IMG/VR virus record: IMGVR_UViG_3300037067_004899
Coordinates: 6,502-70,501 of that record
Length of the DNA stretch: 64,000 nt
Source: a virus
Lineage: Duplodnaviria; Caudoviricetes
Direction: 5' to 3' (one strand)
In this document: positions 18,172-58,114 of the stretch, one piece after another
Layout: each line of letters starts with the position of its first letter
How positions within the stretch are numbered: position 1 is the stretch's first letter
The notes under the pieces: generated by a model
Database searches by the model: none
The model's input: the letters and a program-made list of their open reading frames with translations, nothing else
What the model was told of the DNA's origin: nothing
Program-made: the position numbers and the translations under genes

Positions 18172-18399
18172 ATGGGTTCAGAAGTACTTGCAAGGCGGTT
18201 GAAGGAATTAAGAGAGGAAAAGGGACTGGGCGTTAGGCAACTTGCTGCAATTTTAGGAATGTCTCATGTGGCAATTTCTTATTACGAAAATCAAAAAAGA
18301 GTTCCTGATTTATTAGTAGGGAAAAAATTTGCTGACTTTTTTAATACAACTTGCGATTATCTTATAGGTTTATCGGATGAAAGATACAGGAAGGATTGA
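18172..18399 (+). CDS. CI-like XRE repressor (HTH only)
   Basis: RLKELREEKGLGVRQLAAILGMSHVAISYYENQKRVPD. Confidence 0.9.
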   Translation: MGSEVLARRLKELREEKGLGVRQLAAILGMSHVAISYYENQKRVPDLLVGKKFADFFNTTCDYLIGLSDERYRKD

Positions 18400-18404
18400 T
18401 CGGT

Positions 18405-25163: not shown

Positions 25164-25757
25164 CTATTTCCTCCCTTCATCATATTTTTTAAACTTATCC
25201 AATAAGGCATATATCTCAGGGTCTGCCATTGCCTTTTTAAGCCACTTTGGTTCATCAGTGAGTATTTTACCCTTGGCGTAAGCAACAACGTCCTCCTGTG
25301 GCGTGACAGGCTCTACATAACGCAATACAGAGTTCCATGGATGGTTATAGTAACTCCGTACGCAGATTTCCTTGCCTGTCTGATCTCCAGACAAGCCTCC
25401 TACTATTTTGCCAAGCTCATTGATGGATGCATGAACAAGCTGCTTGTTGCCTATGTACAAAGCTGTGTGGTGCCCTTCGTGGAGTAGAACGTCCCCAGGT
25501 AGTAAACCTTCACCTGTTTTGACATTAACCTTCCCAAACACGTCTACGAACTTGCAAGACAGGAATGCCGTTCTCATGTTTCCGGTATAGCTTGCGCCGG
25601 CCGACTTAACTTTTACTCCTGCGTTTTCCCATGCAGCGATCACCAGGGATGAACAGTCAAAATTAGGATTACCTGAACGGTGTAACTGATCGTATCCGTG
25701 AGATTCATCTTTTGCTATCGCTACAGCAAAAGCAACCGCTAGTTGTATTTTACTCAC
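25164..25757 (-). CDS. Endolysin, NlpC/P60-type peptidoglycan hydrolase
   Basis: GYDQ..FDCSSLV, GDVLL..HHTALY catalytic Cys/His. Confidence 0.88.
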   Translation of the reverse strand: MSKIQLAVAFAVAIAKDESHGYDQLHRSGNPNFDCSSLVIAAWENAGVKVKSAGASYTGNMRTAFLSCKFVDVFGKVNVKTGEGLLPGDVLLHEGHHTALYIGNKQLVHASINELGKIVGGLSGDQTGKEICVRSYYNHPWNSVLRYVEPVTPQEDVVAYAKGKILTDEPKWLKKAMADPEIYALLDKFKKYDEGRK

Positions 25758-25999
25758 TCTTCTTCCTCCCTTTCCAAATCGTCTATTCTGTGGTTTGCTA
25801 CTTTGAATTTTTCCTCGTAAAGATCACACCGTTTTTCAACCTCGTAAGTCCGTTCAATAAGGTTGTTGTGCTTATTCACTTTTATTTCCAGTTGTTCAAG
25901 TCGATATGATATCAGTGCCGAACTTGCCCGGTGAGCAAGGTAACTGCCTGCAAGTGTTCCAATGAGACTTAACACCGCAACTATGATTGTATCTGTCAT
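25754..25999 (-). CDS. Holin-like single-TM protein
   Basis: IIVAVLSLIGTLAGSY..YRLEQLEIKVNKHNNLIERTY family pattern. Confidence 0.75.
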   Translation of the reverse strand: MTDTIIVAVLSLIGTLAGSYLAHRASSALISYRLEQLEIKVNKHNNLIERTYEVEKRCDLYEEKFKVANHRIDDLEREEEE

Positions 26000-26111: not shown

Positions 26112-27716
26112 TTAAAATAAGTTAAGTAATTTCTCTACAGCTGCTAAAATAAGATTTATTCTCTGTTCTTGAAAAATCTTGACGGATTCCGCGATATCCA
26201 TTCCCCTCTTTATACGTCCTTCGCTTCGGATTTCCGCAATATAGATATCAGGCTGGACGTATTCGTCGATCAAAGTCCACGCTTTGTACTTTTGAAACGC
26301 AGGGTTGACAGATTTGTTCTTTTCAATAAAATCCTTTATTTCCAATAACTCAACCCTGTAATCATCCTTTGCACCATCTATCAATTCAAACTCAGGCATG
26401 ACGATCTCTTTGTCAAAAGTAAATTCGTCCAAGGTCTTGTTTGGGATAGACTTAATTATCAGCCCCCTCTCTGTGCAGTTGTAGACTTCTGGTTTCACAC
26501 GGTTTACATATTCCTCGTACCAGTTTCGCATTGAAACGAACGAGGGTTCAGTAAAGCACATTTCACCTTTGTTGTTGGTCATTTGCATTAAGTTGGTTTC
26601 CTGAATGTCCTGGTTGAACTTTGTCCCGTCGCAGTATAATTTATTGTCAGTATAGGACAAATCCATTCCTACTAAAAGAATCGGGCTGCACCCCATTTTA
26701 TGAAGTACGTCAAGCGCGACATTCGCCACTGACGGACCGGATTCAAATATAGGCAGTTCAACGGTTGTGTACCTGTTGACGTTCAGTTGCATCTGTATCT
26801 TGGGACCTTTATAATTTAGTGAATTTTGTGCGATCTGTGTGTCAAAAATTAAGGGCACATCAGAGTCCAGGTTTTCATGTAACCCGCCTGACGTAATGGG
26901 GTCTTGGTCTATCGCGATCATGTAGGTTGGTCTTATATCGTGAGAGTGCAAAATTTCCATTGCGGTTGACGCGGCGATCACAATGGCTTTACTTTGAATA
27001 TCCCTTAGTTTTTCTAATTGAGTTTTTAGACTTGGTCCCGCCCCGACAATGATACCGGGCAATCCCTTGTGTGCGTCTATCAAAGTCTTTCCGTTATATG
27101 AGGGTTTGCGGGCATTGATTATCCGGTTGGCGTACCATTTGTCCACAAGACATCTTTTTGTATTAGTCATTACCGCATAATCGTTTATCATTTGCTTAAC
27201 ATGATTTAATAATAGGTTAAAATAATCCTGGTACACGTTCGCATAGAACGGAAGTAGCATTATCCCCCTTGCTAATGGGTGGGTTATCATTTCATAAATC
27301 TTTGCCTTAACAAGGTCAACAGATTCATCCAGCCAGACAGTACAATTTTTTATGATAAACTCAAAGTCTTTTATCTGAATGGCGTGGTAAAACAGTCTTT
27401 TGTCCGGTTCAATTACGATTATTTTTTTATCCGGATATTTCTTGATTAAAGACTCTATGTGGTTTCCCAATCCAAGCCCGTATACAATAATAGTATGCAG
27501 GTCAGGGTTAACGTTTTGCAGCCAACCTTCATTATCTGAGGTTCCCACAGTCAGCATTTTATCCTCTGAGTTTATCACCAGATTATCAACTGCTTGGTTT
27601 TCATTCAACCCGAACATTACCTGTTCTGTAAATGTCAATGCGGTTTCAGGGGTTTGAATCTTTTTAAATGCTTCCGGCTGAAACTCACTTAAAAGCTTAC
27701 AATTTCTTTCAAACAT
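26112..27716 (-). CDS. maf: Maf (motility-associated factor, DUF115/MAF_flag10) nonulosonic-acid O-glycosyltransferase
   Basis: IIVYGLGLGNHI, IIVGAGPSL, IVIAASTA..IRPTYMIAID, GPSVANVAL..MGCSPILLVGMDLSY, VYNCTERG. Confidence 0.85.
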   Translation of the reverse strand: MFERNCKLLSEFQPEAFKKIQTPETALTFTEQVMFGLNENQAVDNLVINSEDKMLTVGTSDNEGWLQNVNPDLHTIIVYGLGLGNHIESLIKKYPDKKIIVIEPDKRLFYHAIQIKDFEFIIKNCTVWLDESVDLVKAKIYEMITHPLARGIMLLPFYANVYQDYFNLLLNHVKQMINDYAVMTNTKRCLVDKWYANRIINARKPSYNGKTLIDAHKGLPGIIVGAGPSLKTQLEKLRDIQSKAIVIAASTAMEILHSHDIRPTYMIAIDQDPITSGGLHENLDSDVPLIFDTQIAQNSLNYKGPKIQMQLNVNRYTTVELPIFESGPSVANVALDVLHKMGCSPILLVGMDLSYTDNKLYCDGTKFNQDIQETNLMQMTNNKGEMCFTEPSFVSMRNWYEEYVNRVKPEVYNCTERGLIIKSIPNKTLDEFTFDKEIVMPEFELIDGAKDDYRVELLEIKDFIEKNKSVNPAFQKYKAWTLIDEYVQPDIYIAEIRSEGRIKRGMDIAESVKIFQEQRINLILAAVEKLLNLF

Positions 27717-27864
27717 TCTGTACCTCCTGTGGGTAAACCATGCCGGCCCCGATTTTGTCGGTAGAGTCAAGCACGATAAACATGTTATCAAATGTCTGTT
27801 TCCCGTTTATCTCCACCGGGTTAAAAGTTATAAATTGAAAAATAACATCAATTCCGTTTTCCAT
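27709..27864 (-). CDS. 51-aa ORF bridging neuB and maf (not in ORF track)
   Basis: GGAGG RBS inside neuB 3' end; its TGA overlaps the maf start (ATGTTTGA). Confidence 0.55.
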   Translation of the reverse strand: MENGIDVIFQFITFNPVEINGKQTFDNMFIVLDSTDKIGAGMVYPQEVQNV

Positions 27865-28570
27865 TGTTCCTCCTTATAATTTCGCACATTTTAGTAAAAT
27901 CGCTCGGTAATAACGATACGGCAGCATCGACGCATTTTTCGTCTGATAGCATGAAATGTTTTTCAACCATTTCTGCGCCATGCATATCAACCGCATCTAG
28001 GGCATTCTTAATCCCAACGCAATGGCACGAAAGGCCAACCGGCACATGGAATTTTTTCTTCAGCCGTTTAATCTCAGATAGTTTGTAATCGCCTGGCCGT
28101 GACGGATATTTTGAAACACAGTAAAGCAATGTCACGGGAACGTCAACCTCGTTGAGAATCCTTTTGATCTGATCGTCGTCTATTTTGCCAGTTGAAATAA
28201 TAAGCGGTTTACCGAATTCAGCCACTTGCTTAACAAAGTTTAAGTCAGCCGCTTCGGGACTTGCTATTTTAAAGCGTTTCACGTAACCAGATATTTCCTC
28301 CGCGCTGAACTTGTCAAAGCATGTACACAAAAACTCGACATTTTGCCGTTTGCATTCGTTTGCAATGATTGGGATCCATTGCGGGCGTAGGCGTATTTTA
28401 TCCAGCAGTTTGAATGAATCAAAACAATTTCGGTTAACACATAAAATATCTGTATAATAGAATTGAAACTTTGCTATGTCCGCGCCGCACTCCTTTGCTA
28501 TTCTAATCATGTCAAGTGCCTTGTTAAGATCGCCCATGTGGTTAAGGCCGATTTCTGCGATTATTTCCAT
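27848..28570 (-). CDS. neuB: NeuB/SpsE-family nonulosonic acid synthase lacking C-terminal SAF domain
   Basis: IIAEIGLNHMG, GADIAKFQ, FKIAS, KPLIISTG, LLYCVSKYP, VGLSCH, MVEKHF. Confidence 0.93.
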   Translation of the reverse strand: MEIIAEIGLNHMGDLNKALDMIRIAKECGADIAKFQFYYTDILCVNRNCFDSFKLLDKIRLRPQWIPIIANECKRQNVEFLCTCFDKFSAEEISGYVKRFKIASPEAADLNFVKQVAEFGKPLIISTGKIDDDQIKRILNEVDVPVTLLYCVSKYPSRPGDYKLSEIKRLKKKFHVPVGLSCHCVGIKNALDAVDMHGAEMVEKHFMLSDEKCVDAAVSLLPSDFTKMCEIIRRNNGKRN

Positions 28571-28590: not shown

Positions 28591-28610
28591 AGGCACCCTT
28601 TCGAGTGCCT
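28591..28610 (-). terminator. Hairpin, possible weak intrinsic terminator
   Basis: AGGCAC-loop-GTGCCT followed by TAATTTTT on minus strand. Confidence 0.45.
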
Positions 28611-31600
28611 ATTTTGCCATCTTGAATTTAGGTATTTCGCTTTCTTGCCGTTTGTCCTTTTCCTCTTGCTTGGTAGGTTTCTTTATATTTAGTTTACCTG
28701 CCATATATAACTCAGCTTCGTTCCCGATTTCCTCCATAATATTGCTTATCACTTTAAGCTTGGTTTCATCGGGTAAGTCTGAAAACTCCTTTCCTTTTGT
28801 AGATTTGGCAGTAATTAAATTATCCAATGTACTCCATGTCATTTGTCCGACGTACTTTTGTAAATCGGCTTTTTGGTCATTTGACAAAGGGTATTCCGTC
28901 CCGTATATCTTTATTTTGTTGGTCTGAAGCTTGGGGAATTGCGAGGTCTTTCCTGTTGACTTGTAAAGGTCAATCAGTAAATCCCTCCCGGGTGATTTCT
29001 TGTAAATTCCCAAATACCCCGGACTTAGCAGAACATTCAAGGGATTGTTTGAACCGCCTGCGTACATTTCTTTTGTCTCTCCCGTAGTCGTGAGTACAGC
29101 GGGCAGTGTTTTTGAGGCTCCGGGGAAACGATTCTTAATCAAGTTGATTGCCTTTTGCTTCGGATCATCACTTGCCACGTCGCGCTTGGTATTGTCGGTC
29201 ATTTGCCGCACTTGGTTGACTATGGACCCCATCGGAACAAATCTTGACGGCATGGATACTAATGTCTGTGTTAGCCGTTCGCCAAAATCCTGATAATAAT
29301 TATTGCCTAATAGATTAGATATTGCATCGTTTTCAGCAAAAGTTTTCATGCCGGCGCCAAAAGTATCCGGCAATGCTTTCAACGTGTTCAGTTTTATACC
29401 TTCTTGCGCCACATTCGCGCCCAAACCGATATTGAATGAAAATGGAGCAAACCAATCATAGGTATACCACTTATCACCGTCCTGAGGTTTCAACAGTGAA
29501 TCATCCTTGAATCCGTTTAACGCCCATCTTGCGATCGCATCCGCGTTGAATGAATATGCCTTCGAACCGTTTTCATCAAAGAAATTCCGCGCTTCCTTAT
29601 CACTTGGAGCCTGTCCCGTCATTGCGCCCTTAGCAGTGAGATAATATCCTGTTCCTGACAACAACAGTGTCCCGCTTACGGCTTTGGTAATGGACTCTAT
29701 CAGCTTTTCACGGTTTAGCCCGCCTGTGCCTTTAGCGGATTTATAAACCCCTTCACCTATGTAATACAACGATTTGGCAAACCCAGCTAAGCTGTATTCA
29801 AGCCCGATGTTTAATAATGCCCCCGGTGTACGTGCGAACATCATTACGGCATCGCCTAACCCGAATTCCCTTGAAGGGATTTTTCCTATCGTCGCTTGTG
29901 CCTTGCCTATTCCGGCAATGTTTAACGTATCGTGAACGCCTTTCAAAATGTCACTTATCACGTTAGCGTCCCTGAATGTAGCTTTTTCGCCTTGGCGGTT
30001 TGCAACGTCCAAAACACCTTTTGAGAATTCAGACATGTTTTTAGCACTGTTTATAACTCCATCGGCGTATATCTTGGCTTGCGCTTTTAAAGCTTTCCCG
30101 CGGAACCCCTCGTTCATTGCTTTTAAGACAGACTGTTCGCCGATTGAATCCATGACGGCCTTCATGTAAAACGGATAATCACCCGCACCACTCAAAGCCG
30201 CACCTAATGCTTTTTCCATGTAGGTCAAAGGATTGTATTTTCCTCGGAACGCCTGCGTAGCCATCTTAAATTCACTTATCGTTCCATAGGGGTTGTATCC
30301 TTCCCAGCCCGATTTTAAACCCGTTTTAATATCGCTGAAAAATTCTTTAAGTACATTATCCAAGCCACGGTTTGTCTTAAAGGTAACTGTTCTGTCTTTA
30401 CCTGTAAGTTTGGACGTAGTAAAGTCTATCGACGACATAAAGGCTTTGTTTACCCTCATTGCAGTCGCTTGCGCAATATTGCCGGGTACGTTACGCGCTA
30501 TTATGGTTTTAGTGTTCAAAAGCGTGTTTATCATGGTGAATGCTTTGGCTTTTGCAGCAAACGATGACGGAATTTTGCTTTGAATTTCCGACATCATTTT
30601 ATTTACGGAAGCCTGTCTCTTGAATACGTTCGTCATGCCTTGAATCTGTTCGGTCTGTTTGATGATATACTGCGCTTCTTCCGCAGTCAGTCCGGGGATA
30701 TTGTATTTTTCATTCAGTATCTTGGCATACTTTGAATCACCTATCGCGCCCATGTTGGACAGTTCGATAATCTTGTCCGACAGAGATTTCCTGAGATACG
30801 TTTTTTTAGGCTTGAATAAATTATCAAGTATAAGTTTTTTCTTGGCTGCAGTCAGTTCCTTCAGTCGTGTAGTGAATATCTTTTCAACCTTTTCAGCCAC
30901 GTCCTTTGACAAGCCCGCTTCCGTGACAAATTTCTGCGCTAATGTCTGGCCTGTTTCATCAATTTCAGATACATGCTTTTTGGCAATATCCTGCAATTTT
31001 ACCCCGTTATCGCTTAATACTTGCCTGATCGCCTTGTCTACAGAAACATTCATTTTCTGTTCCGGCGTTTTCAAAGACTTGGATTTTATCAGATTCAAGG
31101 AATTATCGTAAATTTCCTTAAGATAAGGCTTTACTTTTTCTCCAAATTCCGATATCATCTCAACGGACCATTCCGCGAAATCTAAGGTCTTTCTCGCCAG
31201 TCGTGCCGCGCCTATCTTTGTCAAGTCGGTTAAGACTTCCCCAGGTAATCCGGCGCGCATTTTAATTATTCCGCTTGTATCAGGTTTGAAATATTCCTTT
31301 ACCCTCGTAGTTGCTTCTGTCTCTTGTTTTTCAAGCCATTCACGCACAGCTTTTGAAACACGCGGTTTATTTGTGATATCACGAAACGCAGCGTCAACAC
31401 TGTCAAGGTTAGCCTTGTTCAATGCTTCCATAACTGGTTTGGCAGACTTGACCTCTTCCTTTACTGCTGTTTTGACTTCTTTCGGTACAACCTCATCCAA
31501 CACCCTTTGTATCTTTACAAGCGTTCCGGCAGGGCTTGCTTTATCCCATGCCGTATCCGTGCCTTTTAATGCCCTTGCTGTTTCACGGGTCTTTTCCGCT

Positions 31601-34600
31601 ACCACAGGCAGCCATTCAAGCAAGCCTTCGGTATCTCCCTGCTTTGCTTTTTCAACAAGGTCTTGTGTGATAACCGCCGCTTCATGCGCTTGCGTGCCGC
31701 CTGAAATAGACTCTGCTTCACGGATATTCTTTATAACTGCGTTCCTGTCCTTTTGAATGTTCTGAATAGCTTTATCCTGCCATTCCTTTGATGTTTCAGG
31801 TATAAAGTCAAAATCCTCCGTTTTGATCTGTTTCTTTATCTTATCAGGTATTACAGTAGTACGGTCGATTGTGTTGGTCTTGAACTGACTCGTTTTAAGC
31901 TTCTGTACGCCGTTTTTAGCGACTACTTCTGCCGAGGGTGCCTTTGCCTGTTCAGCCGTTTTTAAAGTCCGTGTGCCTTGTGCAACGTTTCCAGTTGCTG
32001 ATTCCTTTGCATATTTGCCTTCAACCTTAGGCGGAACAGTAGACCTCGCCACAGTGAACGGTGTTTCCTTACGGTACTGTTCAGGAACGTTGAATTTAAC
32101 GTTGTTTGCAGCTTCGTCATATATTCTGGCTTTTTCTTTTATAGCTTGCTTTTCTGCTAAATCAGCAGTATCAATTTTAGAGAGTGATTTTACCCAATCT
32201 GACTGAGATTTTACAACAGGTTCCTTGGGTATCAAGTCAGACTGCTTTGTTATGTTTTTGGGAAAATTTAGTTTTTCAGCCTCGTTTTTTGTTACGGCAA
32301 AAGGACGCTCTATTTGCCTTGTTTTTTCTGTAAGAGATGCTATGGCGCTGGAATCTGGCTGAGATTTAACTGGATTTACATATGTAGCGCTCCCATCTGA
32401 ATTAATTGTTTTATTCCATTTGTTAAGCATATTTTTTAATCTTGCACTTGCCGTCTTGCTACCTTTTGCACCTTGTTTTATAGTAATGCTTTTGACAGAA
32501 TCAACATAATCCCAGTGGCTATTTTTACTTGCAATAAATTCTGCATCTCCATTTTGATATGATAATTCCCATGCCGGTTTTGATTTATTTACATTGCCTT
32601 TTAATTTTGCGTTAGGTTCAAACTCTATTAGTACGCCTTTGTTATTTCCCTGCCCTAATGCTAAGTCTTTGTTATTTGAAAGATAAATATTGTTATATTC
32701 CATGTCTTTAATGTAATTGCTGTCAACTAAAGGAAGAGCATCATCCAAGCTTGTTTCATGATACATAGTATCTGAAAATTCTTTTAAAAGTTTTCTGTTG
32801 TTATCGTTTTGAGGTAACCGGAACTTTTTAAGTTCTCCTTTGGTTACTGCAAACGGGCGTTCAATTTGCCTTTCAGGTGCCTTAACGGATGCAGAAATTT
32901 CAGACTCAACTTCCTGTATACCATTCCTACTATACATGGGTTCATTACCTAAAAGCTCATCAACTTCAGCAGGAGTCAGCACATCGCCTTCCTTGCCGAA
33001 ATATTCCTCCCTTGTCATTGTGGGCTCGACAGCTTTAGCTTTAGGCGCGTTCAATAGTAAAGGTGCTTTTTGGCCGCTTTTTAGTGTGTTGCCATATTGG
33101 TCAACGGTAAAATCAGCCTTTTTTTCTGCAATTTCCTTTTCTTTTGGTAAGGCTTTTACTGGAGTATTCAGCTTTTTTATCTCTGCCGTTGTTGGTTTTG
33201 GCGGTAACGATTCAATTACATCAGGCGTACGTAGTTTCGGAGCTTCCAGCATAAGATACTGTTTTGCTTCCGGCAGTGTGCGGAGTTCAGGCGTATTATT
33301 GACTACTTCCTTTTCTGCTGCCGTAAGCTTTTGACCGCCTTTTAGCTTTTTGAAAACCGTTTTTGCAATCCCACTTAAACCCATTATTCCAAGTTCCGCA
33401 CCCATGCCGAATAATGCATTACCCGTTATTGTTCTTAGTGCATTCTTAGCAATCTTGCCATAGTCAGTAGAATATAATTTCGCTTGGTCTTCGTGCAGCG
33501 TTTCAGCGTATTTACTTGCTTCACCTTCGGTCTTAAACTTACCCAAGTATTCACCTGTTTTTTTATACCACTGCCAAGCTTCTTCGGATGTCATTTTCCT
33601 GTCTAAACCTTTGCGAACACCTGGAACAAGTACAGCAGTACCATCATCGTTTGTAAATGTCATTGAATACACTGTGCTGATTGAACCATCTGGATTCTTT
33701 ATTGTAGGTCTATCGTTTAGGTCAACATTCCCCTTGCCATAATCTGGCTGTTTAGGCGTATCAATTTCCTTCTGTGTAGCAATCTGCTGTGCGGAGTACG
33801 GCAGTGATTCTATTGTACCTTGTACCACTCTTTTACCGGCCTTATTCGCTATTCCTTCAGCAACAGGAAATAACTTATTCACTGCTTTTTTTGCCAGAGT
33901 ATTAGCCGCAGTGGGCAGTGTAACACCGGGACTGCCTGTAGGAACCATAAACCCTGCTATTGTCCCGCCTACGTCCGAAATAACGTTTCCAACCTTTCCC
34001 GCGCCGCCAATTCCGGCAGATTCAGCGTAATCCTTTGCACTGCTGTCGCCGAACCCTACTGACATGGCTTGCCTTCCGGTTCTGTCAAAAACTTTCCCGA
34101 GAGTGCCTTTTTTAGCATAGTCAACTTTTTCCATGGCTTTCTGAAACTGCTGTGTGAACCCTTCCGGGACTTTCTTGTCAAAATAGTATGCGGTAATTTC
34201 GCCGCCCATGTTGTAGGATTTTGGATCCAAGGACAACCCCTTGCTTAAGATGTCTATTTCGTCAGCGGTCAACACTTCTTTGGCTTTTTGCCTTGTTTTC
34301 TCCTCGTCTTTTTTAAGCATACTTCCAATTACAGGCGTGTTGTAAAAAGATGACTTGCTATTGTAATTCGGTATTTTTGCAGCAGCCTCCGACTTCGCCT
34401 TTTCCTGATCGATTCTGTTTTTTATATCTACAAAGTTTGTTGACAACTTAAATGGCGCATTAAATATAGTGTCGGAAGTACCTTTCGCCTGCGTATTTTG
34501 GGTTGATACCGGCAAATTGAGCGTAGGAAATTCAAGGGTATGTTGTTTTGCAATGCTCTGATAGGCAGGGATGCTTTGTACAGGGGTAACAGTTTCAAAC

Positions 34601-34716
34601 AGTGCTTGTCTTTCTTTATCATATTTACTTGCCCTTTTAGCCTTTTGTGCAGTGCCTTGCGTTTTCGCCGTAACCTTTATTCCAAGCGCTTCACGCTCCT
34701 TGTCATACTTGCTCAT
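28609..34716 (-). CDS. Giant polyvalent ejection-type virion protein (about 2035 aa)
   Basis: Position after tail genes and before lysis; helical, Lys/Ala-rich; inserted domains; no tape-measure repeats. Confidence 0.7.
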   Translation of the reverse strand: MSKYDKEREALGIKVTAKTQGTAQKAKRASKYDKERQALFETVTPVQSIPAYQSIAKQHTLEFPTLNLPVSTQNTQAKGTSDTIFNAPFKLSTNFVDIKNRIDQEKAKSEAAAKIPNYNSKSSFYNTPVIGSMLKKDEEKTRQKAKEVLTADEIDILSKGLSLDPKSYNMGGEITAYYFDKKVPEGFTQQFQKAMEKVDYAKKGTLGKVFDRTGRQAMSVGFGDSSAKDYAESAGIGGAGKVGNVISDVGGTIAGFMVPTGSPGVTLPTAANTLAKKAVNKLFPVAEGIANKAGKRVVQGTIESLPYSAQQIATQKEIDTPKQPDYGKGNVDLNDRPTIKNPDGSISTVYSMTFTNDDGTAVLVPGVRKGLDRKMTSEEAWQWYKKTGEYLGKFKTEGEASKYAETLHEDQAKLYSTDYGKIAKNALRTITGNALFGMGAELGIMGLSGIAKTVFKKLKGGQKLTAAEKEVVNNTPELRTLPEAKQYLMLEAPKLRTPDVIESLPPKPTTAEIKKLNTPVKALPKEKEIAEKKADFTVDQYGNTLKSGQKAPLLLNAPKAKAVEPTMTREEYFGKEGDVLTPAEVDELLGNEPMYSRNGIQEVESEISASVKAPERQIERPFAVTKGELKKFRLPQNDNNRKLLKEFSDTMYHETSLDDALPLVDSNYIKDMEYNNIYLSNNKDLALGQGNNKGVLIEFEPNAKLKGNVNKSKPAWELSYQNGDAEFIASKNSHWDYVDSVKSITIKQGAKGSKTASARLKNMLNKWNKTINSDGSATYVNPVKSQPDSSAIASLTEKTRQIERPFAVTKNEAEKLNFPKNITKQSDLIPKEPVVKSQSDWVKSLSKIDTADLAEKQAIKEKARIYDEAANNVKFNVPEQYRKETPFTVARSTVPPKVEGKYAKESATGNVAQGTRTLKTAEQAKAPSAEVVAKNGVQKLKTSQFKTNTIDRTTVIPDKIKKQIKTEDFDFIPETSKEWQDKAIQNIQKDRNAVIKNIREAESISGGTQAHEAAVITQDLVEKAKQGDTEGLLEWLPVVAEKTRETARALKGTDTAWDKASPAGTLVKIQRVLDEVVPKEVKTAVKEEVKSAKPVMEALNKANLDSVDAAFRDITNKPRVSKAVREWLEKQETEATTRVKEYFKPDTSGIIKMRAGLPGEVLTDLTKIGAARLARKTLDFAEWSVEMISEFGEKVKPYLKEIYDNSLNLIKSKSLKTPEQKMNVSVDKAIRQVLSDNGVKLQDIAKKHVSEIDETGQTLAQKFVTEAGLSKDVAEKVEKIFTTRLKELTAAKKKLILDNLFKPKKTYLRKSLSDKIIELSNMGAIGDSKYAKILNEKYNIPGLTAEEAQYIIKQTEQIQGMTNVFKRQASVNKMMSEIQSKIPSSFAAKAKAFTMINTLLNTKTIIARNVPGNIAQATAMRVNKAFMSSIDFTTSKLTGKDRTVTFKTNRGLDNVLKEFFSDIKTGLKSGWEGYNPYGTISEFKMATQAFRGKYNPLTYMEKALGAALSGAGDYPFYMKAVMDSIGEQSVLKAMNEGFRGKALKAQAKIYADGVINSAKNMSEFSKGVLDVANRQGEKATFRDANVISDILKGVHDTLNIAGIGKAQATIGKIPSREFGLGDAVMMFARTPGALLNIGLEYSLAGFAKSLYYIGEGVYKSAKGTGGLNREKLIESITKAVSGTLLLSGTGYYLTAKGAMTGQAPSDKEARNFFDENGSKAYSFNADAIARWALNGFKDDSLLKPQDGDKWYTYDWFAPFSFNIGLGANVAQEGIKLNTLKALPDTFGAGMKTFAENDAISNLLGNNYYQDFGERLTQTLVSMPSRFVPMGSIVNQVRQMTDNTKRDVASDDPKQKAINLIKNRFPGASKTLPAVLTTTGETKEMYAGGSNNPLNVLLSPGYLGIYKKSPGRDLLIDLYKSTGKTSQFPKLQTNKIKIYGTEYPLSNDQKADLQKYVGQMTWSTLDNLITAKSTKGKEFSDLPDETKLKVISNIMEEIGNEAELYMAGKLNIKKPTKQEEKDKRQESEIPKFKMAK

Positions 34717-34729
34717 ATAATCACCCACT

Positions 34730-36901
34730 TTAGTTAATAGGCAAACCATACCTCAGTAATAGCGGATCTGTAATGGTATCATCAAGATTTAGACCTATGA
34801 TATAACTTCTAAGCCCTGCTTTATCACTGATCTGTGTTATACCGCCGGCATCTTTTGAAATGAATGAACTACTGTCTACCATATCAATGTAGTTGTTGTA
34901 CTGTGTTCTTTCGGTTTCTGTAAGTTGCTGTTCCTTGTCGAATGCAAACTTGTCCTGCTGGAGTTTTATCTGCGCTGCTGCCTGCGCTGCTGATATGTTG
35001 CCAAGCTTGATATCATTCTTAAGTTTATCAAGTTCAAGTTTCTGAGATTTAGACATATTTTCATATTCAAGTTCTTTTATCTGATATTCCAATGCAGATG
35101 TTTTCGCTTTATTGACATCATCTATCAAGGTCCTCATAGTATCCACTGAATCCGCTGCTACACCTGCCTCCTGCAATAGCTGATTGAATGCAGTGTCTTT
35201 TTCTGCTTTACTCAAATCACTATATTTCTGACTGGCCTCATAAAGCATCTGTGACCGTTTTTCAGCAAGGTTATCAAGTGAGGTCTGTTCGTCTGTTGTA
35301 AGGTTATTCAGAGCATCGTTGACCTTTTTAATGATCGCCATTTTCCCGCTTGATAAGGTCTGCGCAGCTGCCCCCTCTGCTCTTGCGATGCCTGCCAAAC
35401 CCGATACTCGGCCCTGTTCAAGATCCGCTAATGAATTTTGATAATCTCTTTCCGCTTGACCTTTTAATCTTTCCGCATCTGCCAGGCTTAAGGTTTTGTT
35501 GGATTCAATCTCACTTATGCTATTGGTGTAGTCCTGTTCTATTTGTATCTTTTTACGTTCCGCATCCGCAAGTCCTGTAGCCTGTTCCTGTTCAAGTCCT
35601 GTTAATTTGTTGGACACGTCACGTTCATATGACTGTTTTTGACCTGTAATTTTGCCGATTTCACTTAGATTAGTCTGCCCGGCCTGACCTAACTCAGAAG
35701 TCACTTGACCGCCAGCGGATAATCCTCTTTGTGCAAATTCACCCTCAAGCTGTTTGGCCTGTCTTTGGGCGAGAATATCCTGCTGATTCATTGCTGTGTC
35801 GTAAGTAGGCAGAGTCTCAGCTTTTGTGGATTCTATGCCTGTCTTGGCTGTCGAATAAGCATTTTTAATCTTGTCTACGTTAGTTGAAAGTTCATCTGAC
35901 AAGGATTGCTTGTTTGCGCCTAACTCGTTTTTACTTTGTTCGTACAGTTGAATTATCTTATCGGCCTGCGCGGCTATGCTGTCCATAGTATCAGTATTTT
36001 GCGTGTCAACATTTCGTTTTCCTGTCGAATAAGCATTTCTTATCTCGTCGGCCTGACTGGATAATTCAGCCAATTGCGCCGCGTAGGAATCGTCCAACTC
36101 CTGCTTGGTAATATCCGCATCCGATAAAATTCCAGCCCTTGCCTTTTTGGCATTAGCTTCAGCAATGTTTTTCTGTTCCTGCAAGATACTGTTTACATAA
36201 GCGGAAATTTTAGACATATAGTCTTCTTCTGTTACTTTAGGAACATAGGTTTGATCAAAATTAGTCAGTTGGGCGTTTTTGTCCGCTAATGCACCTGTAC
36301 TATAATCAAGGTAATCCTGTGTTGTAAGTTCGCTTTTCAATCTTGCTATCTGGGCCGCATTTGTAGCAGCCTGTCCCTGTGATACCCTGTAGTTATCCGC
36401 AGCTTCGGCGGCCATAAGCATGCCAACCTTGTTTCCTGTGCTTTGAGCGGCGGCATACTGATCTTTATAGCCCTGCAAGGTCGCATCTACCGTAGGAGCC
36501 GCAGACGATGAACTGGACGACGAGCTAGATGATGTATTGTTTGACGTTGCTCCAAGATTTTGCACTGCCGTATCGGCAGCTGAACCGCTTATTTGATTGT
36601 CTCTAATTTGACGCGCAAGTTCCCTGTCGGGGTCTACTGTAGTGCTTGTAGCCGGACTTACTGCCGGTTTAGTTGTGGTACCTGTGGTACTTACTGGCTT
36701 AGTGACTGTCGGCGTTATTGTCTGCGTTTTGACCGGAACAACCGTGGTAGATGGTGTGGGTATTGTCAGCGACGCGCCGGCCTGTATCTTATTCGCATTT
36801 GTTATGCTTGGGTTTGCTGCAACAATAGCGGCAACAGTGGTTTTATTGTCTTTGGCTAATTGACTTAATGTATCGCCGCTTTTTATTTTAACAGTAGCCA
36901 T
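34730..36901 (-). CDS. LysM-containing coiled-coil virion/ejection protein
   Basis: VKIKSGDTLSQLA..IVAANPSITNANKIQAGASLTIP LysM; Thr/Pro and poly-Ser linker; coiled-coil repeats. Confidence 0.75.
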   Translation of the reverse strand: MATVKIKSGDTLSQLAKDNKTTVAAIVAANPSITNANKIQAGASLTIPTPSTTVVPVKTQTITPTVTKPVSTTGTTTKPAVSPATSTTVDPDRELARQIRDNQISGSAADTAVQNLGATSNNTSSSSSSSSSSAAPTVDATLQGYKDQYAAAQSTGNKVGMLMAAEAADNYRVSQGQAATNAAQIARLKSELTTQDYLDYSTGALADKNAQLTNFDQTYVPKVTEEDYMSKISAYVNSILQEQKNIAEANAKKARAGILSDADITKQELDDSYAAQLAELSSQADEIRNAYSTGKRNVDTQNTDTMDSIAAQADKIIQLYEQSKNELGANKQSLSDELSTNVDKIKNAYSTAKTGIESTKAETLPTYDTAMNQQDILAQRQAKQLEGEFAQRGLSAGGQVTSELGQAGQTNLSEIGKITGQKQSYERDVSNKLTGLEQEQATGLADAERKKIQIEQDYTNSISEIESNKTLSLADAERLKGQAERDYQNSLADLEQGRVSGLAGIARAEGAAAQTLSSGKMAIIKKVNDALNNLTTDEQTSLDNLAEKRSQMLYEASQKYSDLSKAEKDTAFNQLLQEAGVAADSVDTMRTLIDDVNKAKTSALEYQIKELEYENMSKSQKLELDKLKNDIKLGNISAAQAAAQIKLQQDKFAFDKEQQLTETERTQYNNYIDMVDSSSFISKDAGGITQISDKAGLRSYIIGLNLDDTITDPLLLRYGLPIN

Positions 36902-36905
36902 AAAA

Positions 36906-37469
36906 TCACCCCTCAGTTTTCTTAATAATCCTTGCTGGATTTCCCACAACAGTTACATTGTCCGGAATGTCCCTTATAACTAAACTGCCTGCGCCTATGA
37001 CGGCGTTTTTGCCCGCCTTGATGCCTTGAATTAATATTGCACCCGCCCCGATGAAAACGTTGTCGGAAAGTGTCACATCCCCGCACAATGTAACGCGCGG
37101 ACTGAGAACACAATTGTCCCCTATCACGCAGTCATGGTGTATCTGAGAGCATAATCCGATAGCAACATTTTCGCCGATTTGCACGTTATGGCAAATATGT
37201 GATGAAAATATTAAAGGCTCCGTTTTTATCGAAGCCTTTAAAAGTTTTTCATATATTCGATTTCTTGTCTCGTTATCTCCTACGCTTCCCACGGCGTTAT
37301 AAACGGGGTATCGTATGGGTATTCGCCCTTGGCATAAATCGTCAACGGTCCCTAGAATCTTATACCCTTCAAATGTTCCAACTTTAAAATCATCAATAAA
37401 AAATACCTCTTGGTGAGGTATAAAAGAAAGGACATCTAAACTATTTTGTCCTGCACCTATTAAAATCAT
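36906..37469 (-). CDS. neuD: NeuD/PglD-family sugar acetyltransferase
   Basis: LIGAG, FIDD, GDNETR N-terminal domain; hexapeptide repeats; IGAGSLVIRDIPDNVTVVGNPARII. Confidence 0.9.
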   Translation of the reverse strand: MILIGAGQNSLDVLSFIPHQEVFFIDDFKVGTFEGYKILGTVDDLCQGRIPIRYPVYNAVGSVGDNETRNRIYEKLLKASIKTEPLIFSSHICHNVQIGENVAIGLCSQIHHDCVIGDNCVLSPRVTLCGDVTLSDNVFIGAGAILIQGIKAGKNAVIGAGSLVIRDIPDNVTVVGNPARIIKKTEG

Positions 37470-46483: not shown

Positions 46484-47011
46484 TTATTCATTCCCGATGA
46501 CTATGTAGCTTACAATTCCCTGCGTAGCTACGCCGGTTGAATTGTTTATCAACCACCTTATACCTGTCTGAGTTGCTATAGCACCGGCAATCAACCCCGT
46601 GACCTGCGGTGTTACAAAGGCATATAAGGCTGTTGACAAGCCGCAGTTTGTTACGGATGTCATTACTACAGCGTCAGTTGCCAGGGCTGAACCGAACGCC
46701 ACCTTGTACTTTGTACCGTATAGTGCAGCGTTCAGCATTGCAGCACCTGCGGTTAGACCGGATATGTTGGCTTTTAAAGCTGATGCATCAACACTTGTTG
46801 TAAGTCCACTCACGAGGTTTACCAACGATGATGCGTTTACCGCCGTTGTTAAGCCACTCACAAGATTAACCAAGGACGACGCATTTACTGCGGTTGTCAG
46901 ACCAGATACCAGGTTATTTACCGCAGATGCATACTGGTACATAGTCCCGGCTGAGTCCTTAAAGCCTTCTGCGCGGACATATGAGGACACCCTTGTTGTT
47001 TCAGTTGACAT
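46484..47011 (-). CDS. Ser/Thr/Ala-rich structural protein with 16-aa tandem repeats
   Basis: NLVSGLTTAVNASSLV repeated about 3 times. Confidence 0.65.
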   Translation of the reverse strand: MSTETTRVSSYVRAEGFKDSAGTMYQYASAVNNLVSGLTTAVNASSLVNLVSGLTTAVNASSLVNLVSGLTTSVDASALKANISGLTAGAAMLNAALYGTKYKVAFGSALATDAVVMTSVTNCGLSTALYAFVTPQVTGLIAGAIATQTGIRWLINNSTGVATQGIVSYIVIGNE

Positions 47012-48733: not shown

Positions 48734-49177
48734 TTATATTGCAGGGGCAAAGATTACATAGATTGAACTGGTCGGAGAATCCGCCGTTGCAGTCTTGTAA
48801 ACTAAGAGCCCTGTACCTACCGCCGCGCCGTTAACACCTGTGCCAACTGAAGCAGTACTCAAGTTAATCTTGGAACCGGCTACCGTTGCCGCTGTTATGG
48901 CGGTTGAAATTGAAGATTTCCACACCTGGTTATCATTCACCGGTGTTACTGTCGGGTAATATGCCGCTGTTACTACGGATGATGCGGCGGAAACGTTGGA
49001 TATTGCATATACCGTGTCGGCGCTGTCTGCAAAGCAAAGGGCACCGCCCGTTACTTTCAAGGCCTGACCGTTGTATAATGCGTACCCGCTGAGTGCGGGT
49101 AATCTTTTTTCAGAGTAAAGACTGTTGCCTTCACCCTGTGCGAATTTTGCGAATTCTATCATGAAAATCCCTCCCAA
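48734..49177 (-). CDS. Capsid decoration/cement protein
   Basis: Position between scaffold and capsid; Ser/Thr/Ala-rich. Confidence 0.6.
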   Translation of the reverse strand: MGGIFMIEFAKFAQGEGNSLYSEKRLPALSGYALYNGQALKVTGGALCFADSADTVYAISNVSAASSVVTAAYYPTVTPVNDNQVWKSSISTAITAATVAGSKINLSTASVGTGVNGAAVGTGLLVYKTATADSPTSSIYVIFAPAI

Positions 49178-50770: not shown

Positions 50771-51583
50771 TTAAATCACCTTCCATTTCGTAAAAATTTC
50801 TCCGTCCCGGTACAATGATTCATGGAGTTTCTCATAAGGTTTCAAACCTGTCTGCACGATGTCACAGCCGCCAAATCCAGCCAGTAAATCCTTGACTGAA
50901 TATTCTTTCATATCTAGCACCACAAGTCCACTCAAACCGCTTTCGGCAATGTCCAAAACGGCTTTTGATATGCTTTCCTTTGACGCACCGTAGCGAGTGG
51001 CGTTCAGGTCTGTCACTGTCAAGGGCAAGCCTTGTTCCTTTTGCTTCTGCCATATTTCCAGAACTGAACCGCTTGAACCGAAAATATTTCCGCTTCTGAC
51101 TACGATAAATTTTGTTTTAGCCTTACCACACCAGTTCACAGCGTCCAAAACCAAATGTTCCGACATTGCCTTTGAATGCCCGTAGATATTGACAGGCAGA
51201 ACGGCCTTATCGGTTGATATCTGTATGAACGTTTCAATATTGTTTTTTACAGCACATTCAAGGGCTTTTTGCACACCGACAACGTTTGTATTAAGGCAGG
51301 CGAAAGGGTTCTCGTCGCACATTTCGACCCGTTTCATTGCGGCGCAGTTTATAACGACGTCTGCGTTGGTCATAGCCATGTTAAGGCGTTCCAAATCACA
51401 TATGTCACCAATCAAATACCTCATTTGGGGTTCATATTCCTTGAACTTTTCACGCAATAAAAAAAGCCTGTATTCGTTTCTCGAATAGGCCCTTATCGTA
51501 ACATCCTGCTTGACTAATTCAGTTATCAGCGCAGTCCCCAATGTCCCACTTGCCCCAATTACCAAAATGTTTTTAAATAGCAT
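50771..51583 (-). CDS. UDP-GlcNAc 4,6-dehydratase family (PseB/LegB/CapD-like)
   Basis: GASGTLG, VINCAAMKRV, ISTDKAVLPVNIYGHSK, VRSGNIFGSSGSV. Confidence 0.92.
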   Translation of the reverse strand: MLFKNILVIGASGTLGTALITELVKQDVTIRAYSRNEYRLFLLREKFKEYEPQMRYLIGDICDLERLNMAMTNADVVINCAAMKRVEMCDENPFACLNTNVVGVQKALECAVKNNIETFIQISTDKAVLPVNIYGHSKAMSEHLVLDAVNWCGKAKTKFIVVRSGNIFGSSGSVLEIWQKQKEQGLPLTVTDLNATRYGASKESISKAVLDIAESGLSGLVVLDMKEYSVKDLLAGFGGCDIVQTGLKPYEKLHESLYRDGEIFTKWKVI

Positions 51584-56292: not shown

Positions 56293-56784
56293 TCACTCTT
56301 TATAGTTTTGCGCTAACTTTTCCAGCGCGATATCCCGTATGTTGTAGCAGTTCCTTTCGCTATTATTGGTTTTTAAGGCTACTGTGAGCCATTCGTAACC
56401 CTTTATATATCTGTGGTAGATTATGTTGTATTCGTTCTTGTCCAAGCATTTAAGAGCATCATACATGTCTGTTTCCGCCTGATTATAGAGTTTGATCTGA
56501 GCGCAGTAATAGTCGAGGTGTACCTGGTATTCATCGATGATTTTCTGAACGGCTTGATATACAATATCGCGCATTTCCGTTCCGTGTGGCATACCGTCAA
56601 AATTAGGCACTTTTAGCGTATTGACAGCGTTTTGCTTGAATTGCTGCGTTTCCCTCAGTTTTATTTCAATTTCACGCCGTCTTTCCGGTATATTGGAATA
56701 TTCAATCAGCAATCTTTCCATGTGCAGTAATTTCAACCGTATCACCTCACGTTCTTCTGAAAACTGGTTTTTCGCAATGTCCAT
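56293..56784 (-). CDS. ArpU/RinA-family transcriptional activator
   Basis: ALKCLDKNEYNIIYHRYIKGYEWLTVALKTNNSERNCYNIRDIALEKL sigma-4-like HTH. Confidence 0.8.
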   Translation of the reverse strand: MDIAKNQFSEEREVIRLKLLHMERLLIEYSNIPERRREIEIKLRETQQFKQNAVNTLKVPNFDGMPHGTEMRDIVYQAVQKIIDEYQVHLDYYCAQIKLYNQAETDMYDALKCLDKNEYNIIYHRYIKGYEWLTVALKTNNSERNCYNIRDIALEKLAQNYKE

Positions 56785-58114
56785 TTATCAAACTTTCCTT
56801 TACGTAGTTATTATTCAATGCCGCCTTGCAAGCCATTAGTGCTATTTCTACGGCTTCTATTGTGCGGTTAACCTCTTTATCTGTATGTGATGCACTAGGG
56901 GCTATATATGGCATTAAAATCCCTTCTTGGATCATAACTTGGTCGAACAAGGTTTTCAGCGCCATGCTTGAAAATGAAATTGACGGATTTGCGCCCTCTA
57001 TTATCCCTATACTTTCATTGCCGTGGCATTTTATTTTTATGTGTTGGCTTAGATATGTTCCATCAGATAATTGTGTATTGTATTTTAATATAGTTTCATT
57101 TATCCCCCGCACAATAAAACGCCCTATTTGGTTAATGCAATCCACCGCATCTTTAGGGTAATCGTTGTAGCCATTATAAAATTCTGTTTTCTGCAATTCT
57201 TTCACGCAGGCAATTGCCGCAGCTATGTCAGGCGTGTTGGAAAAATAAGTCCCGGACAGCAGGAAGACATTGCCTTTATCGCGTAACCCAAGATCAAATA
57301 ACTCTTTTTTTCCGCACAGGGCAGATACAGCATATCCATTCCCCATAGCCTTGCCAAGCGTACAAAGGTCTGGATTTACGCCGTATAATCCTTGAACGCC
57401 ACCTATTCCGTACCGGAAACCGGATATTACCTCGTCAAGTATCATGATTATGCCGTATTTATCGCATATGTTGCGGATATGCTGAAGTTTTTCGCGGGTT
57501 ATGTCTACTGTGGAGGGGTCAAGGACAATGGCGGCAGGTCGATATGCTTTGCATAACCATTCAATTTGTGTTATTTCATATTTATTATTCGGACTAAAAT
57601 ATATTTCACGAGGGTGCGTTATGTCCGTTAGCGTATTATATGAATAGTGCTCAACTGTTTCGGAGTCTTCGCAGGGTATGCCACCATCCACAAGGGTAGT
57701 TCCAATGAAAAAGTCTGCCGTTGATATAAACGGGTTTTCCTTTGCAATAAGCACTAAATCCCTGCCCGTGTAAGCCCTAGCCAACTTTACGGCGGCATGT
57801 GTTACGTCCGAACCATTCTTCCCAAGTTTGACCTCTTCAGCACAAGGGATAATCGACTTTAGCAGTTCTTTTAATTCCCCCTCATACGGATTTGACCGCG
57901 TAAAGCACACCCCGTTATCTATCGCTTTCTTTGCGGCGTCATCCACAGGTTTATATGCGTAGCCAAGTATACAGGCGCGTAAAGCCATTCCCCAATCAAT
58001 GAATTCGCGTCCATCCTCTGCTGTCACGTGGCAGCCGGATCCTTTTACGAACGTGTCCGGACAATTTGAGCTAAAACAATCATCTGAACGGCTGTATGTT
58101 GCGTAATGTTTCAT
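56747..58114 (-). CDS. Class III PLP aminotransferase (GSA-aminomutase-like, sugar-cluster type)
   Basis: GREFIDW..ILGY, KNGSD..AAVKLARAYTGR, ILDEVISGFR, TLGKAMGNG. Confidence 0.9.
   Translation of the reverse strand: MKHYATYSRSDDCFSSNCPDTFVKGSGCHVTAEDGREFIDWGMALRACILGYAYKPVDDAAKKAIDNGVCFTRSNPYEGELKELLKSIIPCAEEVKLGKNGSDVTHAAVKLARAYTGRDLVLIAKENPFISTADFFIGTTLVDGGIPCEDSETVEHYSYNTLTDITHPREIYFSPNNKYEITQIEWLCKAYRPAAIVLDPSTVDITREKLQHIRNICDKYGIIMILDEVISGFRYGIGGVQGLYGVNPDLCTLGKAMGNGYAVSALCGKKELFDLGLRDKGNVFLLSGTYFSNTPDIAAAIACVKELQKTEFYNGYNDYPKDAVDCINQIGRFIVRGINETILKYNTQLSDGTYLSQHIKIKCHGNESIGIIEGANPSISFSSMALKTLFDQVMIQEGILMPYIAPSASHTDKEVNRTIEAVEIALMACKAALNNNYVKESLINGHCEKPVFRRT

What the first reader, a model, noticed from the sequence alone, without database searches (positions are those of the whole stretch)
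26112..27716. Maf flagellin-type glycosyltransferase in a phage with no flagellin, placed between ejection genes and lysis
Seen: a full-length (534 aa) Maf with its N-terminal methyltransferase-like region and GAGPSL/GxDL core, and no flagellin or fliS gene in the window. Established: Maf genes normally sit in flagellar glycosylation islands and recognise flagellin. Inference: a Maf retargeted to non-flagellin substrates would be a new protein O-sialyltransferase specificity, of interest for glycoengineering.
Basis: partly seen in the sequence, partly recalled or inferred. Interest (0 to 1): 0.8.

Follow-up and report, generated by a model that had tools for sequence, protein, structure and literature searches.

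The report
Full-length Maf sugar transferase in phage
An uncultured temperate phage and all its relatives carry an intact copy of the bacterial enzyme that puts sialic-acid-like sugars on flagella, plus every gene needed to make such a sugar, yet no flagellin, so the phage most likely sugar-coats one of its own particle proteins, which has not been shown for any phage.

Summary
Window 26112-27716 (-) encodes a 534-aa protein that passes both Pfam Maf models. Its predicted fold matches the only solved Maf (5MU5) over its whole length, and it keeps the three residues shown to be needed for Maf activity. Neither the complete 70.5-kb phage genome nor five relatives encode flagellin.

It is not a recent capture. 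Thirty phage-type Mafs form one clade on a long stem, at most 32% identical to any cellular Maf, and under strong purifying selection (dN/dS 0.06).

The nearest cellular clade is a second Maf paralogue of Clostridia that lies beside nrdR and the sporulation sigma genes. It is not the flagellin-linked copy.

Maf always follows NeuB at the end of the late operon, just before the lysis genes. A complete legionaminic-type pathway is spread through the same operon in all relatives.

The most likely reading (about 0.55) is late-infection O-glycosylation of a virion protein. A Ser/Thr-rich fibre-like protein with a variable repeat number is the best candidate. The acceptor is not shown and the host is unknown.

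This scan has noted cut-down Maf-like genes in other phages before. This one is a full-length, three-domain Maf. I found no paper on phage Mafs.

The parts
26112..27716 (-). Maf-family nonulosonic-acid protein glycosyltransferase, 534 aa. It has three domains: an N-terminal Rossmann/methyltransferase-like domain, a central GT-A/sialyltransferase-like DUF115 domain, and a short C-terminal helical domain (residues about 454-533).
   Evidence: Pfam. AF2 model pLDDT 85.9. 5MU5: Foldseek E 2.2e-21; VIA-align Z 26.2 with 490 residues aligned. D270, S329 and D352 are conserved.
27848..28570 (-). NeuB-family nonulosonic-acid synthase, 240 aa, without a SAF domain. It lies immediately upstream of Maf in every relative.
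   Evidence: PF03102 at 166 bits. NeuB/PseI NCBIfam hits are below cut-off. Synteny.
28591..28610 (-). Terminator-like hairpin followed by a T-run, between the 2046-aa gene and NeuB.
   Evidence: Pattern scan only. Function untested.
36906..37469 (-). PglD/NeuD-type sugar N-acetyltransferase.
   Evidence: PF17836 plus Hexapep. TIGR03570 at 128 bits.
50771..51583 (-). PseB/PglF/LegB-like UDP-sugar 4,6-dehydratase, wedged between the portal and scaffold genes.
   Evidence: PF02719 at 210 bits. TIGR03589 at 204 bits, below cut-off. The position is conserved.
56747..58114 (-). Class-III aminotransferase (tailoring step?).
   Evidence: PF00202. PRK06209 at 345 bits.
59030..59926 (-). Gfo/Idh/MocA oxidoreductase.
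   Evidence: PF22725.
59923..60447 (-). Carbon-nitrogen hydrolase-family protein.
   Evidence: PF00795.
60444..61145 (-). CMP-nonulosonate cytidylyltransferase.
   Evidence: PF02348.
62081..63289 (-). NeuC/LegG-type hydrolysing UDP-sugar 2-epimerase.
   Evidence: PF02350 at 197 bits.
46484..47011 (-). Candidate acceptor: a 175-aa fibre-like protein just after the capsid gene, 24% Ser+Thr. It has a conserved 33-aa N-terminus, a variable number of 16-aa LVSGLTTSVNASSLVN repeats, an Ala/Ser/Thr stalk in some relatives (143-293 aa overall) and a lectin/fibre-tip-like C-terminal knob.
   Evidence: Composition. Relatives. Atlas leads only. Its role as acceptor is inferred.
48734..49177 (-). Second candidate acceptor: a small (about 142 aa), highly conserved, Ala/Ser/Thr-rich protein between the scaffold and capsid genes (position typical of a decoration protein).
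   Evidence: The AF2 model is unusable. Inferred.
25164..25999 (-). Lysis cassette directly downstream of Maf: an XhlA-like small protein (25754-25999) and an NlpC/P60 + ELLD endolysin (25164-25757).
28609..36949 (-). A 2046-aa protein and a 739-aa LysM/transglycosylase-like protein (probable internal or ejection proteins), upstream of NeuB-Maf. The LysM protein has a linker with 20 Ser/Thr in 40 residues.
   Evidence: Conserved order.

Best explanation
The gene encodes an active, full-length Maf-family glycosyltransferase that is a core late gene of a family of uncultured temperate, podovirus-like phages. Late in infection the phage's own enzymes build a CMP-activated legionaminic-acid-type sugar. 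These enzymes are a 4,6-dehydratase, a DegT aminotransferase (just outside the window, genome 2176-3306), a PglD/NeuD acetyltransferase, a NeuC-type hydrolysing epimerase, a NeuB synthase, a cytidylyltransferase and several tailoring enzymes. Maf then transfers the sugar to Ser/Thr of a protein made at the same time. That protein is most likely a surface protein of the phage particle. The best candidates are the Ser/Thr-rich repeat fibre at 46484-47011, the small protein before the capsid gene, and the Ser/Thr linker of the LysM protein. Shown here: family membership, fold, conserved catalytic residues, purifying selection, an old phage-specific clade, the co-inherited donor pathway, late-operon placement and the absence of flagellin. 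Inferred: the identity of the sugar, transfer to protein, and above all the acceptor.
For: Family and fold. VIA-align against 5MU5 gives Z 26.2, with model residues 1-534 matched to chain residues 11-647. The central domain also aligns to the sialyltransferase CstII at Z 9.8.

Catalytic residues: D270, S329 and D352 are invariant in 28 phage Mafs (S329 nearly so) and conserved in all 10 other Mafs aligned with the window's protein (3 phage-type, 7 cellular). Their equivalents are required for activity in M. magneticum and C. botulinum Maf (bioRxiv 10.1101/2020.06.03.131540).

Selection: dN/dS is 0.059 at dS 0.72 against a 92%-identical relative.

Phylogeny: the phage clade has support 100 and a stem of 0.88-0.93.

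Synteny: the order PglD, LysM protein, giant protein, NeuB, Maf, lysis genes is conserved at 43-92% Maf identity. The order DegT, NeuC, CMP-transferase, hydrolase, oxidoreductase, aminotransferase, TerL, portal, dehydratase, scaffold, capsid is also conserved. It persists even at 44-54% portal identity. The pathway genes are interleaved with essential head and tail genes on one strand, so they cannot be a lysogen-expressed moron block.

No sigma-70-like promoter was seen within 900 bp upstream of NeuB.

No flagellin or FliS.

The C-terminal region after the catalytic domain is 116-121 aa (134 in one divergent member) against 163-173 aa in cellular Mafs, and BLAST does not align it.
Against: No acceptor was identified by any test. 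The host is unknown, so a host flagellin, pilin or S-layer target cannot be excluded. Every experimentally characterised Maf modifies flagellin. The C-terminal helical domain still superimposes on that of 5MU5, so the shorter tail alone does not prove a new specificity. A terminator-like hairpin precedes NeuB, so NeuB, Maf and the lysis genes could be regulated apart from the virion genes. Ser/Thr-rich composition is common in phage fibres whether or not they are glycosylated.
Confidence: 0.55

Rival explanations
1. The phage Maf modifies a host protein (flagellin, pilin or an S-layer or cell-wall protein) using the phage-made sugar. This might block adsorption of competing or progeny phages, or alter motility.
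For: All characterised Mafs act on flagellin (PMC4065374 listed). The full three-domain Maf architecture is retained. The phage is temperate, with an integrase at 18396-19595. The nearest cellular Mafs are from flagellated Clostridia.
Against: All pathway genes lie in the late, virion-and-lysis strand, interleaved with terminase, portal, capsid and tail genes. They would therefore be off in a lysogen and on only shortly before lysis, when newly made flagellin has little chance to matter. The closest cellular clade is the non-flagellar-locus paralogue, not the flagellin-linked one.
Confidence: 0.25
2. The acceptor is not a protein. The enzyme adds the nonulosonate to a glycan, for example a host wall polymer or a glycan already on a virion protein, in the manner of the structurally related GT42/GT29 sialyltransferases.
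For: The central domain aligns to CstII and to mammalian sialyltransferases at Z 8-10. A weak Gb3_synth-like hit in the 313-aa tail-module protein hints at other sugar chemistry.
Against: The best match by far is Maf itself (Z 26.2 against at most 9.8). The Maf-specific N-terminal domain is present. No other clear glycosyltransferase that could build an underlying glycan was found in the genome.
Confidence: 0.1
3. It is a recently captured, passenger or decaying host gene with no role in the phage.
For: Temperate phages do pick up host genes, and Maf lies near the lysis/lysogeny junction where cargo often sits.
Against: Identity to any cellular Maf is at most 32%. The phage clade is monophyletic on a long stem. 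dN/dS is 0.059. The gene is present in every relative that covers the region. Catalytic residues are intact.
Confidence: 0.03

Closest known systems
Bacterial Maf (motility-associated factor) flagellin nonulosonic-acid O-glycosyltransferases: Magnetospirillum magneticum Maf (PDB 5MU5), Clostridium botulinum and Geobacillus kaustophilus Maf, Aeromonas caviae Maf1, Campylobacter Maf/PseD/PseE
   Same: Both Pfam domains are present. The three-domain fold matches over the whole length (Z 26.2). The catalytic Asp/Ser/Asp equivalents are conserved. The gene is genetically linked to a CMP-nonulosonate pathway.
   Different: It is encoded by a phage, in the late operon next to the lysis genes. No flagellin, FliS or other flagellar gene is present. 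Identity is at most 32%. The C-terminal region is about 50 aa shorter and cannot be aligned by sequence. It scores far below the NCBIfam PseD cut-off (85.7 against 670 bits).
nrdR-linked Maf paralogue of Clostridia (e.g. Acetivibrio cellulolyticus P0035; gene order ftsZ, spoIIGA, sigE, sigG, nrdR, Maf)
   Same: It is the sister clade of the phage Mafs (support 96-97). It is not in a flagellar locus. It is the best cellular BLAST match (237 bits).
   Different: It is chromosomal and 617-622 aa long, with a long C-terminal region and no adjacent NeuB. Its function is uncharacterised as far as I could find.
Virion glycosylation in mycobacteriophages (Che8 and cluster F1; Freeman et al. 2023, cited in PMC12619734)
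   Same: Phage-encoded glycosyltransferases are expressed with the structural genes and decorate capsid or tail proteins.
   Different: Those phages use ordinary GT-family enzymes and host nucleotide sugars. Here the transferase is Maf-type and the phage encodes the whole nonulosonate donor pathway. Particle glycosylation is not shown here.
Cut-down DUF115/MptE-like proteins of uncultured phages and giant viruses
   Same: They share the central DUF115 catalytic domain in viral genomes, sometimes with NeuB or NeuC nearby.
   Different: They match only the central domain (best TMq 0.40) and lack the Maf N-terminal Pfam domain. The protein here is a complete three-domain Maf.

Membership tests
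Maf (motility-associated factor) glycosyltransferases | Central MAF_flag10/DUF115 domain (PF01973) above the gathering score | tested here: met
   123.8 bits against a cut-off of 34.6, residues 210-357.
Maf (motility-associated factor) glycosyltransferases | Maf-specific N-terminal domain (PF20157) | tested here: met
   38.2 bits against a cut-off of 23.5. The domain is also on record for nearly all phage-clade relatives.
Maf (motility-associated factor) glycosyltransferases | Three-domain architecture as in the crystal structure 5MU5 | tested here: met
   Foldseek E 2.2e-21, TMq 0.65. VIA-align Z 26.2, 490 residues aligned, model 1-534 against chain 11-647.
Maf (motility-associated factor) glycosyltransferases | Acidic and Ser residues needed for activity (M. 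magneticum 324/415; C. botulinum D272, S334, D357) | tested here: met
   D270, S329 and D352 align with the conserved D/S/D of all 10 other Mafs aligned with the window's protein (3 phage-type, 7 cellular) and with the 5MU5 motifs. The correspondence is by alignment and the paper's own numbering could not be matched exactly.
Maf (motility-associated factor) glycosyltransferases | Genetic linkage to flagellin or a flagellar glycosylation island | tested here: not met
   No Flagellin_N or FliS in the complete genome or in five relatives. For contrast, C. botulinum Maf lies directly after flagellin.
Maf (motility-associated factor) glycosyltransferases | Linkage to CMP-nonulosonate biosynthesis genes | tested here: met
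   NeuB is adjacent. The dehydratase, DegT, PglD, NeuC and cytidylyltransferase genes are in the same operon.
Maf (motility-associated factor) glycosyltransferases | O-glycosylation of Ser/Thr of flagellin with a nonulosonic acid | not testable with these tools
   Needs co-expression and mass spectrometry.
PseD (NCBIfam NF050051, flagellin modification protein) | Score above the curated cut-off | tested here: not met
   85.7 bits against 670.
Legionaminic-acid-type (NeuC-dependent) nonulosonate pathway | 4,6-dehydratase, DegT aminotransferase, N-acetyltransferase, hydrolysing 2-epimerase, NeuB-type synthase and cytidylyltransferase all present | tested here: met
   All enzyme classes are found at Pfam level. 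No NCBIfam equivalog cut-off is reached, so Leg versus Pse versus a new derivative is not settled.
Phage virion glycosylation systems | Glycan demonstrated on a structural protein of the particle | not testable with these tools
   Uncultured phage.

The most novel reading that the evidence does not exclude
A whole family of temperate phages makes its own legionaminic-acid-type sugar and uses a full-length Maf, whose acceptor-recognition part has been remodelled, to O-glycosylate a virion fibre or capsid-surface protein. This would be the first virus-encoded nonulosonic-acid protein glycosylation system and the first Maf with a non-flagellin acceptor. Its sister clade, the nrdR-linked paralogue of Clostridia, might then also be a non-flagellin Maf.
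Probability: 0.5. Interest if true: 0.8.

Novelty: new variant of a known kind. Interest (0 to 1): 0.66.

Why it matters
Mafs are the only known enzymes that put sialic-acid-like sugars directly on protein Ser/Thr. So far they are known only with flagellin, and how they recognise it is unknown. A Maf that has evolved for a long time without flagellin, together with its own donor pathway and a short list of co-encoded candidate acceptors, would give a compact system for studying acceptor recognition. It could also serve for engineering protein O-sialylation. If the particles are coated with an acidic nonulosonate, that would add a new kind of phage surface chemistry, with possible effects on adsorption, stability and recognition by predators or immune systems. 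The nrdR-linked paralogue of Clostridia is an unexplored cellular counterpart.

Tried and rejected
No result.

2. AF2 of the small protein before the capsid gene: pLDDT 37, unusable.

3. Host identification failed.
- tblastn of Maf and megablast of 24 kb against 50,697 phage records gave no match.
- The portal gave one 28%-identical partial hit.
- Two scans of 185,579 species genomes found only three short MAG contigs. They were binned as Nanoarchaeia, Paceibacterota and Babeliales, and the NeuB-Maf block (plus the giant-protein and other late genes where the contig reaches) on them matches the phage's at 59-72% identity. I read these as probably misbinned phage contigs, not as hosts.
- The portal search named no cellular organism.
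- In 399 Clostridia genomes, portal relatives were at most 30% identical.
- No host junction or tRNA was found on the MAG contigs.

4. The IQ-TREE mixture model on 114 rows did not finish. It was replaced by FastTree on all rows and IQ-TREE LG+G4 on 41 rows, which agree.

5. Four literature searches found no paper on a phage-encoded Maf. The library lacks most subscription journals.

6. PHROGs has no family for Maf or NeuB of this phage.

7. The 'recent capture' reading was rejected on phylogeny and dN/dS. The 'moron expressed in lysogens' reading was judged unlikely because the pathway genes are interleaved with essential structural genes.

Full report
**What is there.** The window is bases 6502-70501 of a 70.5-kb IMG/VR virus record that CheckV rates 100% complete. 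The ORF at 26112-27791 (-) opens with TTG.

Family evidence:
- Pfam: PF01973 (MptE-like/DUF115, the Maf catalytic domain) at 123.8 bits, and PF20157 (Maf N-terminal domain) at 38.2 bits. Both are above their gathering scores.
- NCBIfam: only PseD, far below its cut-off.
- Structure: an AlphaFold2 model built on 28 relatives has mean pLDDT 85.9. Its only strong PDB match is the Magnetospirillum Maf 5MU5, with Foldseek E 2.2e-21 and VIA-align Z 26.2 over 490 residues spanning model 1-534.
- Domains: the central domain also resembles CstII and mammalian sialyltransferases (Z 8-10). The N-terminal domain resembles SAM-methyltransferase folds (Z 7-8.7).

**Is it likely active?** In M. magneticum and C. 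botulinum Maf, two acidic residues and a conserved Ser are needed for activity (bioRxiv 10.1101/2020.06.03.131540). The aligned positions here are D270 (IDQDP), S329 (GPSV) and D352 (GMDL). They are invariant or nearly so in the phage clade and conserved in all Mafs aligned with the window's protein. Against a 92%-identical relative, dN/dS is 0.059 at dS 0.72. The gene is clearly under selection.

**Where it came from.** No relative was found in 50,697 sequenced phage records. The large protein collection holds about 33 relatives at 37-92% identity, all from metagenomes. Identity then drops abruptly to at most 32%, for 600-620-aa Mafs of Clostridia and other Firmicutes.

In a FastTree of 114 rows and an IQ-TREE of 41 rows, the phage-type proteins form one clade (support 100) on a stem of about 0.9 changes per site. 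Their sister (support 96-97) is a small clade of Clostridial Mafs.

Three members of that sister clade were checked, and all lie at ftsZ, spoIIGA, sigE, sigG, nrdR, Maf rather than in a flagellar locus. Acetivibrio cellulolyticus has a second Maf 1.2 kb from four flagellin genes. The phage protein is closer to the nrdR-linked copy (237 bits) than to the flagellar copy (154 bits). C. botulinum Maf, in the next clade out, lies directly after flagellin in a classical glycosylation island.

So this is not a recent capture, and its nearest cellular kin are themselves not flagellum-linked.

**Context.** Transcription of the minus strand runs in this order:
1. small terminase subunit;
2. the 6.5 kb outside the window, with a DegT aminotransferase and a radical-SAM gene;
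3. radical SAM, NeuC-type epimerase, cytidylyltransferase, CN-hydrolase, Gfo/Idh/MocA oxidoreductase, class-III aminotransferase;
4. TerL, portal, PseB-like dehydratase, scaffold, small protein, capsid, repeat fibre, tail genes;
5. PglD/NeuD acetyltransferase, LysM protein, 2046-aa protein, NeuB, Maf;
6. XhlA-like protein and endolysin.

All enzyme classes of a NeuC-dependent (legionaminic-type) pathway are present. None reaches an equivalog cut-off, so the exact sugar is open.

The order is conserved in every related contig examined:
- PglD, LysM protein, giant protein, NeuB, Maf at 43-92% Maf identity;
- DegT through capsid at 72-93% portal identity;
- the sugar genes still precede TerL at 44-54% portal identity.

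Neither this genome nor five relatives encode flagellin or FliS. The phage is temperate, with an integrase at 18396-19595.

**How it most likely works.** A full donor pathway that is stably interleaved with essential head and tail genes must be expressed with them, late in lytic growth. A transferase made at that time meets large amounts of virion protein and, shortly afterwards, lysis. I therefore favour O-glycosylation of a particle protein (about 0.55).

The region after the catalytic domain is about 50 aa shorter than in cellular Mafs and cannot be aligned to them by sequence. It still forms a helical domain that superimposes on 5MU5 and carries clade-invariant acidic residues E495 and E499. 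This fits altered acceptor recognition but does not prove it.

Candidate acceptors:
- the 175-aa protein after the capsid gene. It has 24% Ser+Thr and a conserved N-terminus. Relatives carry 1-6 copies of a 16-aa repeat, and some add an Ala/Ser/Thr stalk, giving 143-293 aa overall. Atlas look-alikes suggest a fibre-tip-like C-terminus;
- the small conserved Ala/Ser/Thr-rich protein before the capsid gene;
- the Ser/Thr linker of the LysM protein.

None was tested. The complex predictor was unreachable and then closed.

**Rivals.** A host protein target (flagellin, pilin or S-layer) stays open at about 0.25, because the host could not be identified and every characterised Maf acts on flagellin. 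A glycan acceptor is possible (0.1). A passenger or decaying gene is contradicted by the data (0.03). A terminator-like hairpin between the giant gene and NeuB leaves room for separate regulation of NeuB, Maf and the lysis genes.

**Novelty.** I found no paper on a phage-encoded Maf. BFVD and IMG/VR hold shorter viral DUF115 proteins that match only the central domain. Earlier reports of this scan describe such cut-down Maf-like genes in capsid modules of other phages. So the general idea has been noted before in this scan on other DNA.

The features specific to this case are:
- a complete three-domain Maf;
- a complete pathway scattered through the late operon;
- its position next to the lysis genes;
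- the link to a non-flagellar Maf paralogue of Clostridia.

I class it as a new variant of a known kind. Interest is moderate to high, limited by the unproven acceptor.

Noticed in passing
L034:10001-11869, L050:10001-11854, L051:10001-11860; G006:C3:1943329-1943841: Some Clostridia carry a Maf paralogue in a fixed position after ftsZ, spoIIGA, sigE, sigG and nrdR, away from any flagellar gene. Acetivibrio cellulolyticus has this copy in addition to a flagellin-linked Maf. It may be a non-flagellin (sporulation-linked?) Maf.
   Followed up: partly
window 27848-28570 and all relatives (e.g. L005:9147-9857): The phage NeuB is only 233-240 aa and matches the NeuB model to about position 231-253 of 241-329. 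The C-terminal SAF domain of cellular NeuB/PseI/LegI is missing throughout the family.
   Followed up: partly
window 63305-63871 and genome 945-1634 (L035): Two radical-SAM genes, a carbon-nitrogen hydrolase, a Gfo/Idh/MocA oxidoreductase and a class-III (GSA-aminomutase-like) aminotransferase sit within the sugar block. This suggests a tailored, possibly new nonulosonate derivative.
   Followed up: no
L033:8612-9856; L052:6688-9630: Mobile elements have invaded the conserved operon in relatives: an HNH/RRXRR gene between NeuB and Maf, and an intein with a LAGLIDADG domain in the gene before the portal (probably TerL).
   Followed up: no
L007:7282-7358: A tRNA-Ala with anticodon AGC, unusual for bacteria, lies between the lysis genes and the integrase of a relative.
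   Followed up: no
L008, L009, L010 (MAG contigs JAQTNH010000003.1, JBAZIW010000014.1, JBAZHB010000149.1): Contigs that carry this phage family's NeuB-Maf late-gene block are binned in MAGs labelled Nanoarchaeia, Paceibacterota and Babeliales. This is probably misbinning, though a host among small-celled groundwater lineages was not excluded.
   Followed up: partly
L013 (IMGVR_UViG_3300035698_009217): A 43%-identical Maf lies in a differently arranged contig, with the aminotransferase, oxidoreductase and cytidylyltransferase on the opposite strand after Maf. CheckV rates the record only 6% complete, so it may belong to a much larger phage.
   Followed up: no
window 5601-6422 and genome 5059-6186 (L035): The phage encodes two DNA adenine methyltransferase-type genes (D12 class and MT-A70).
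   Followed up: no
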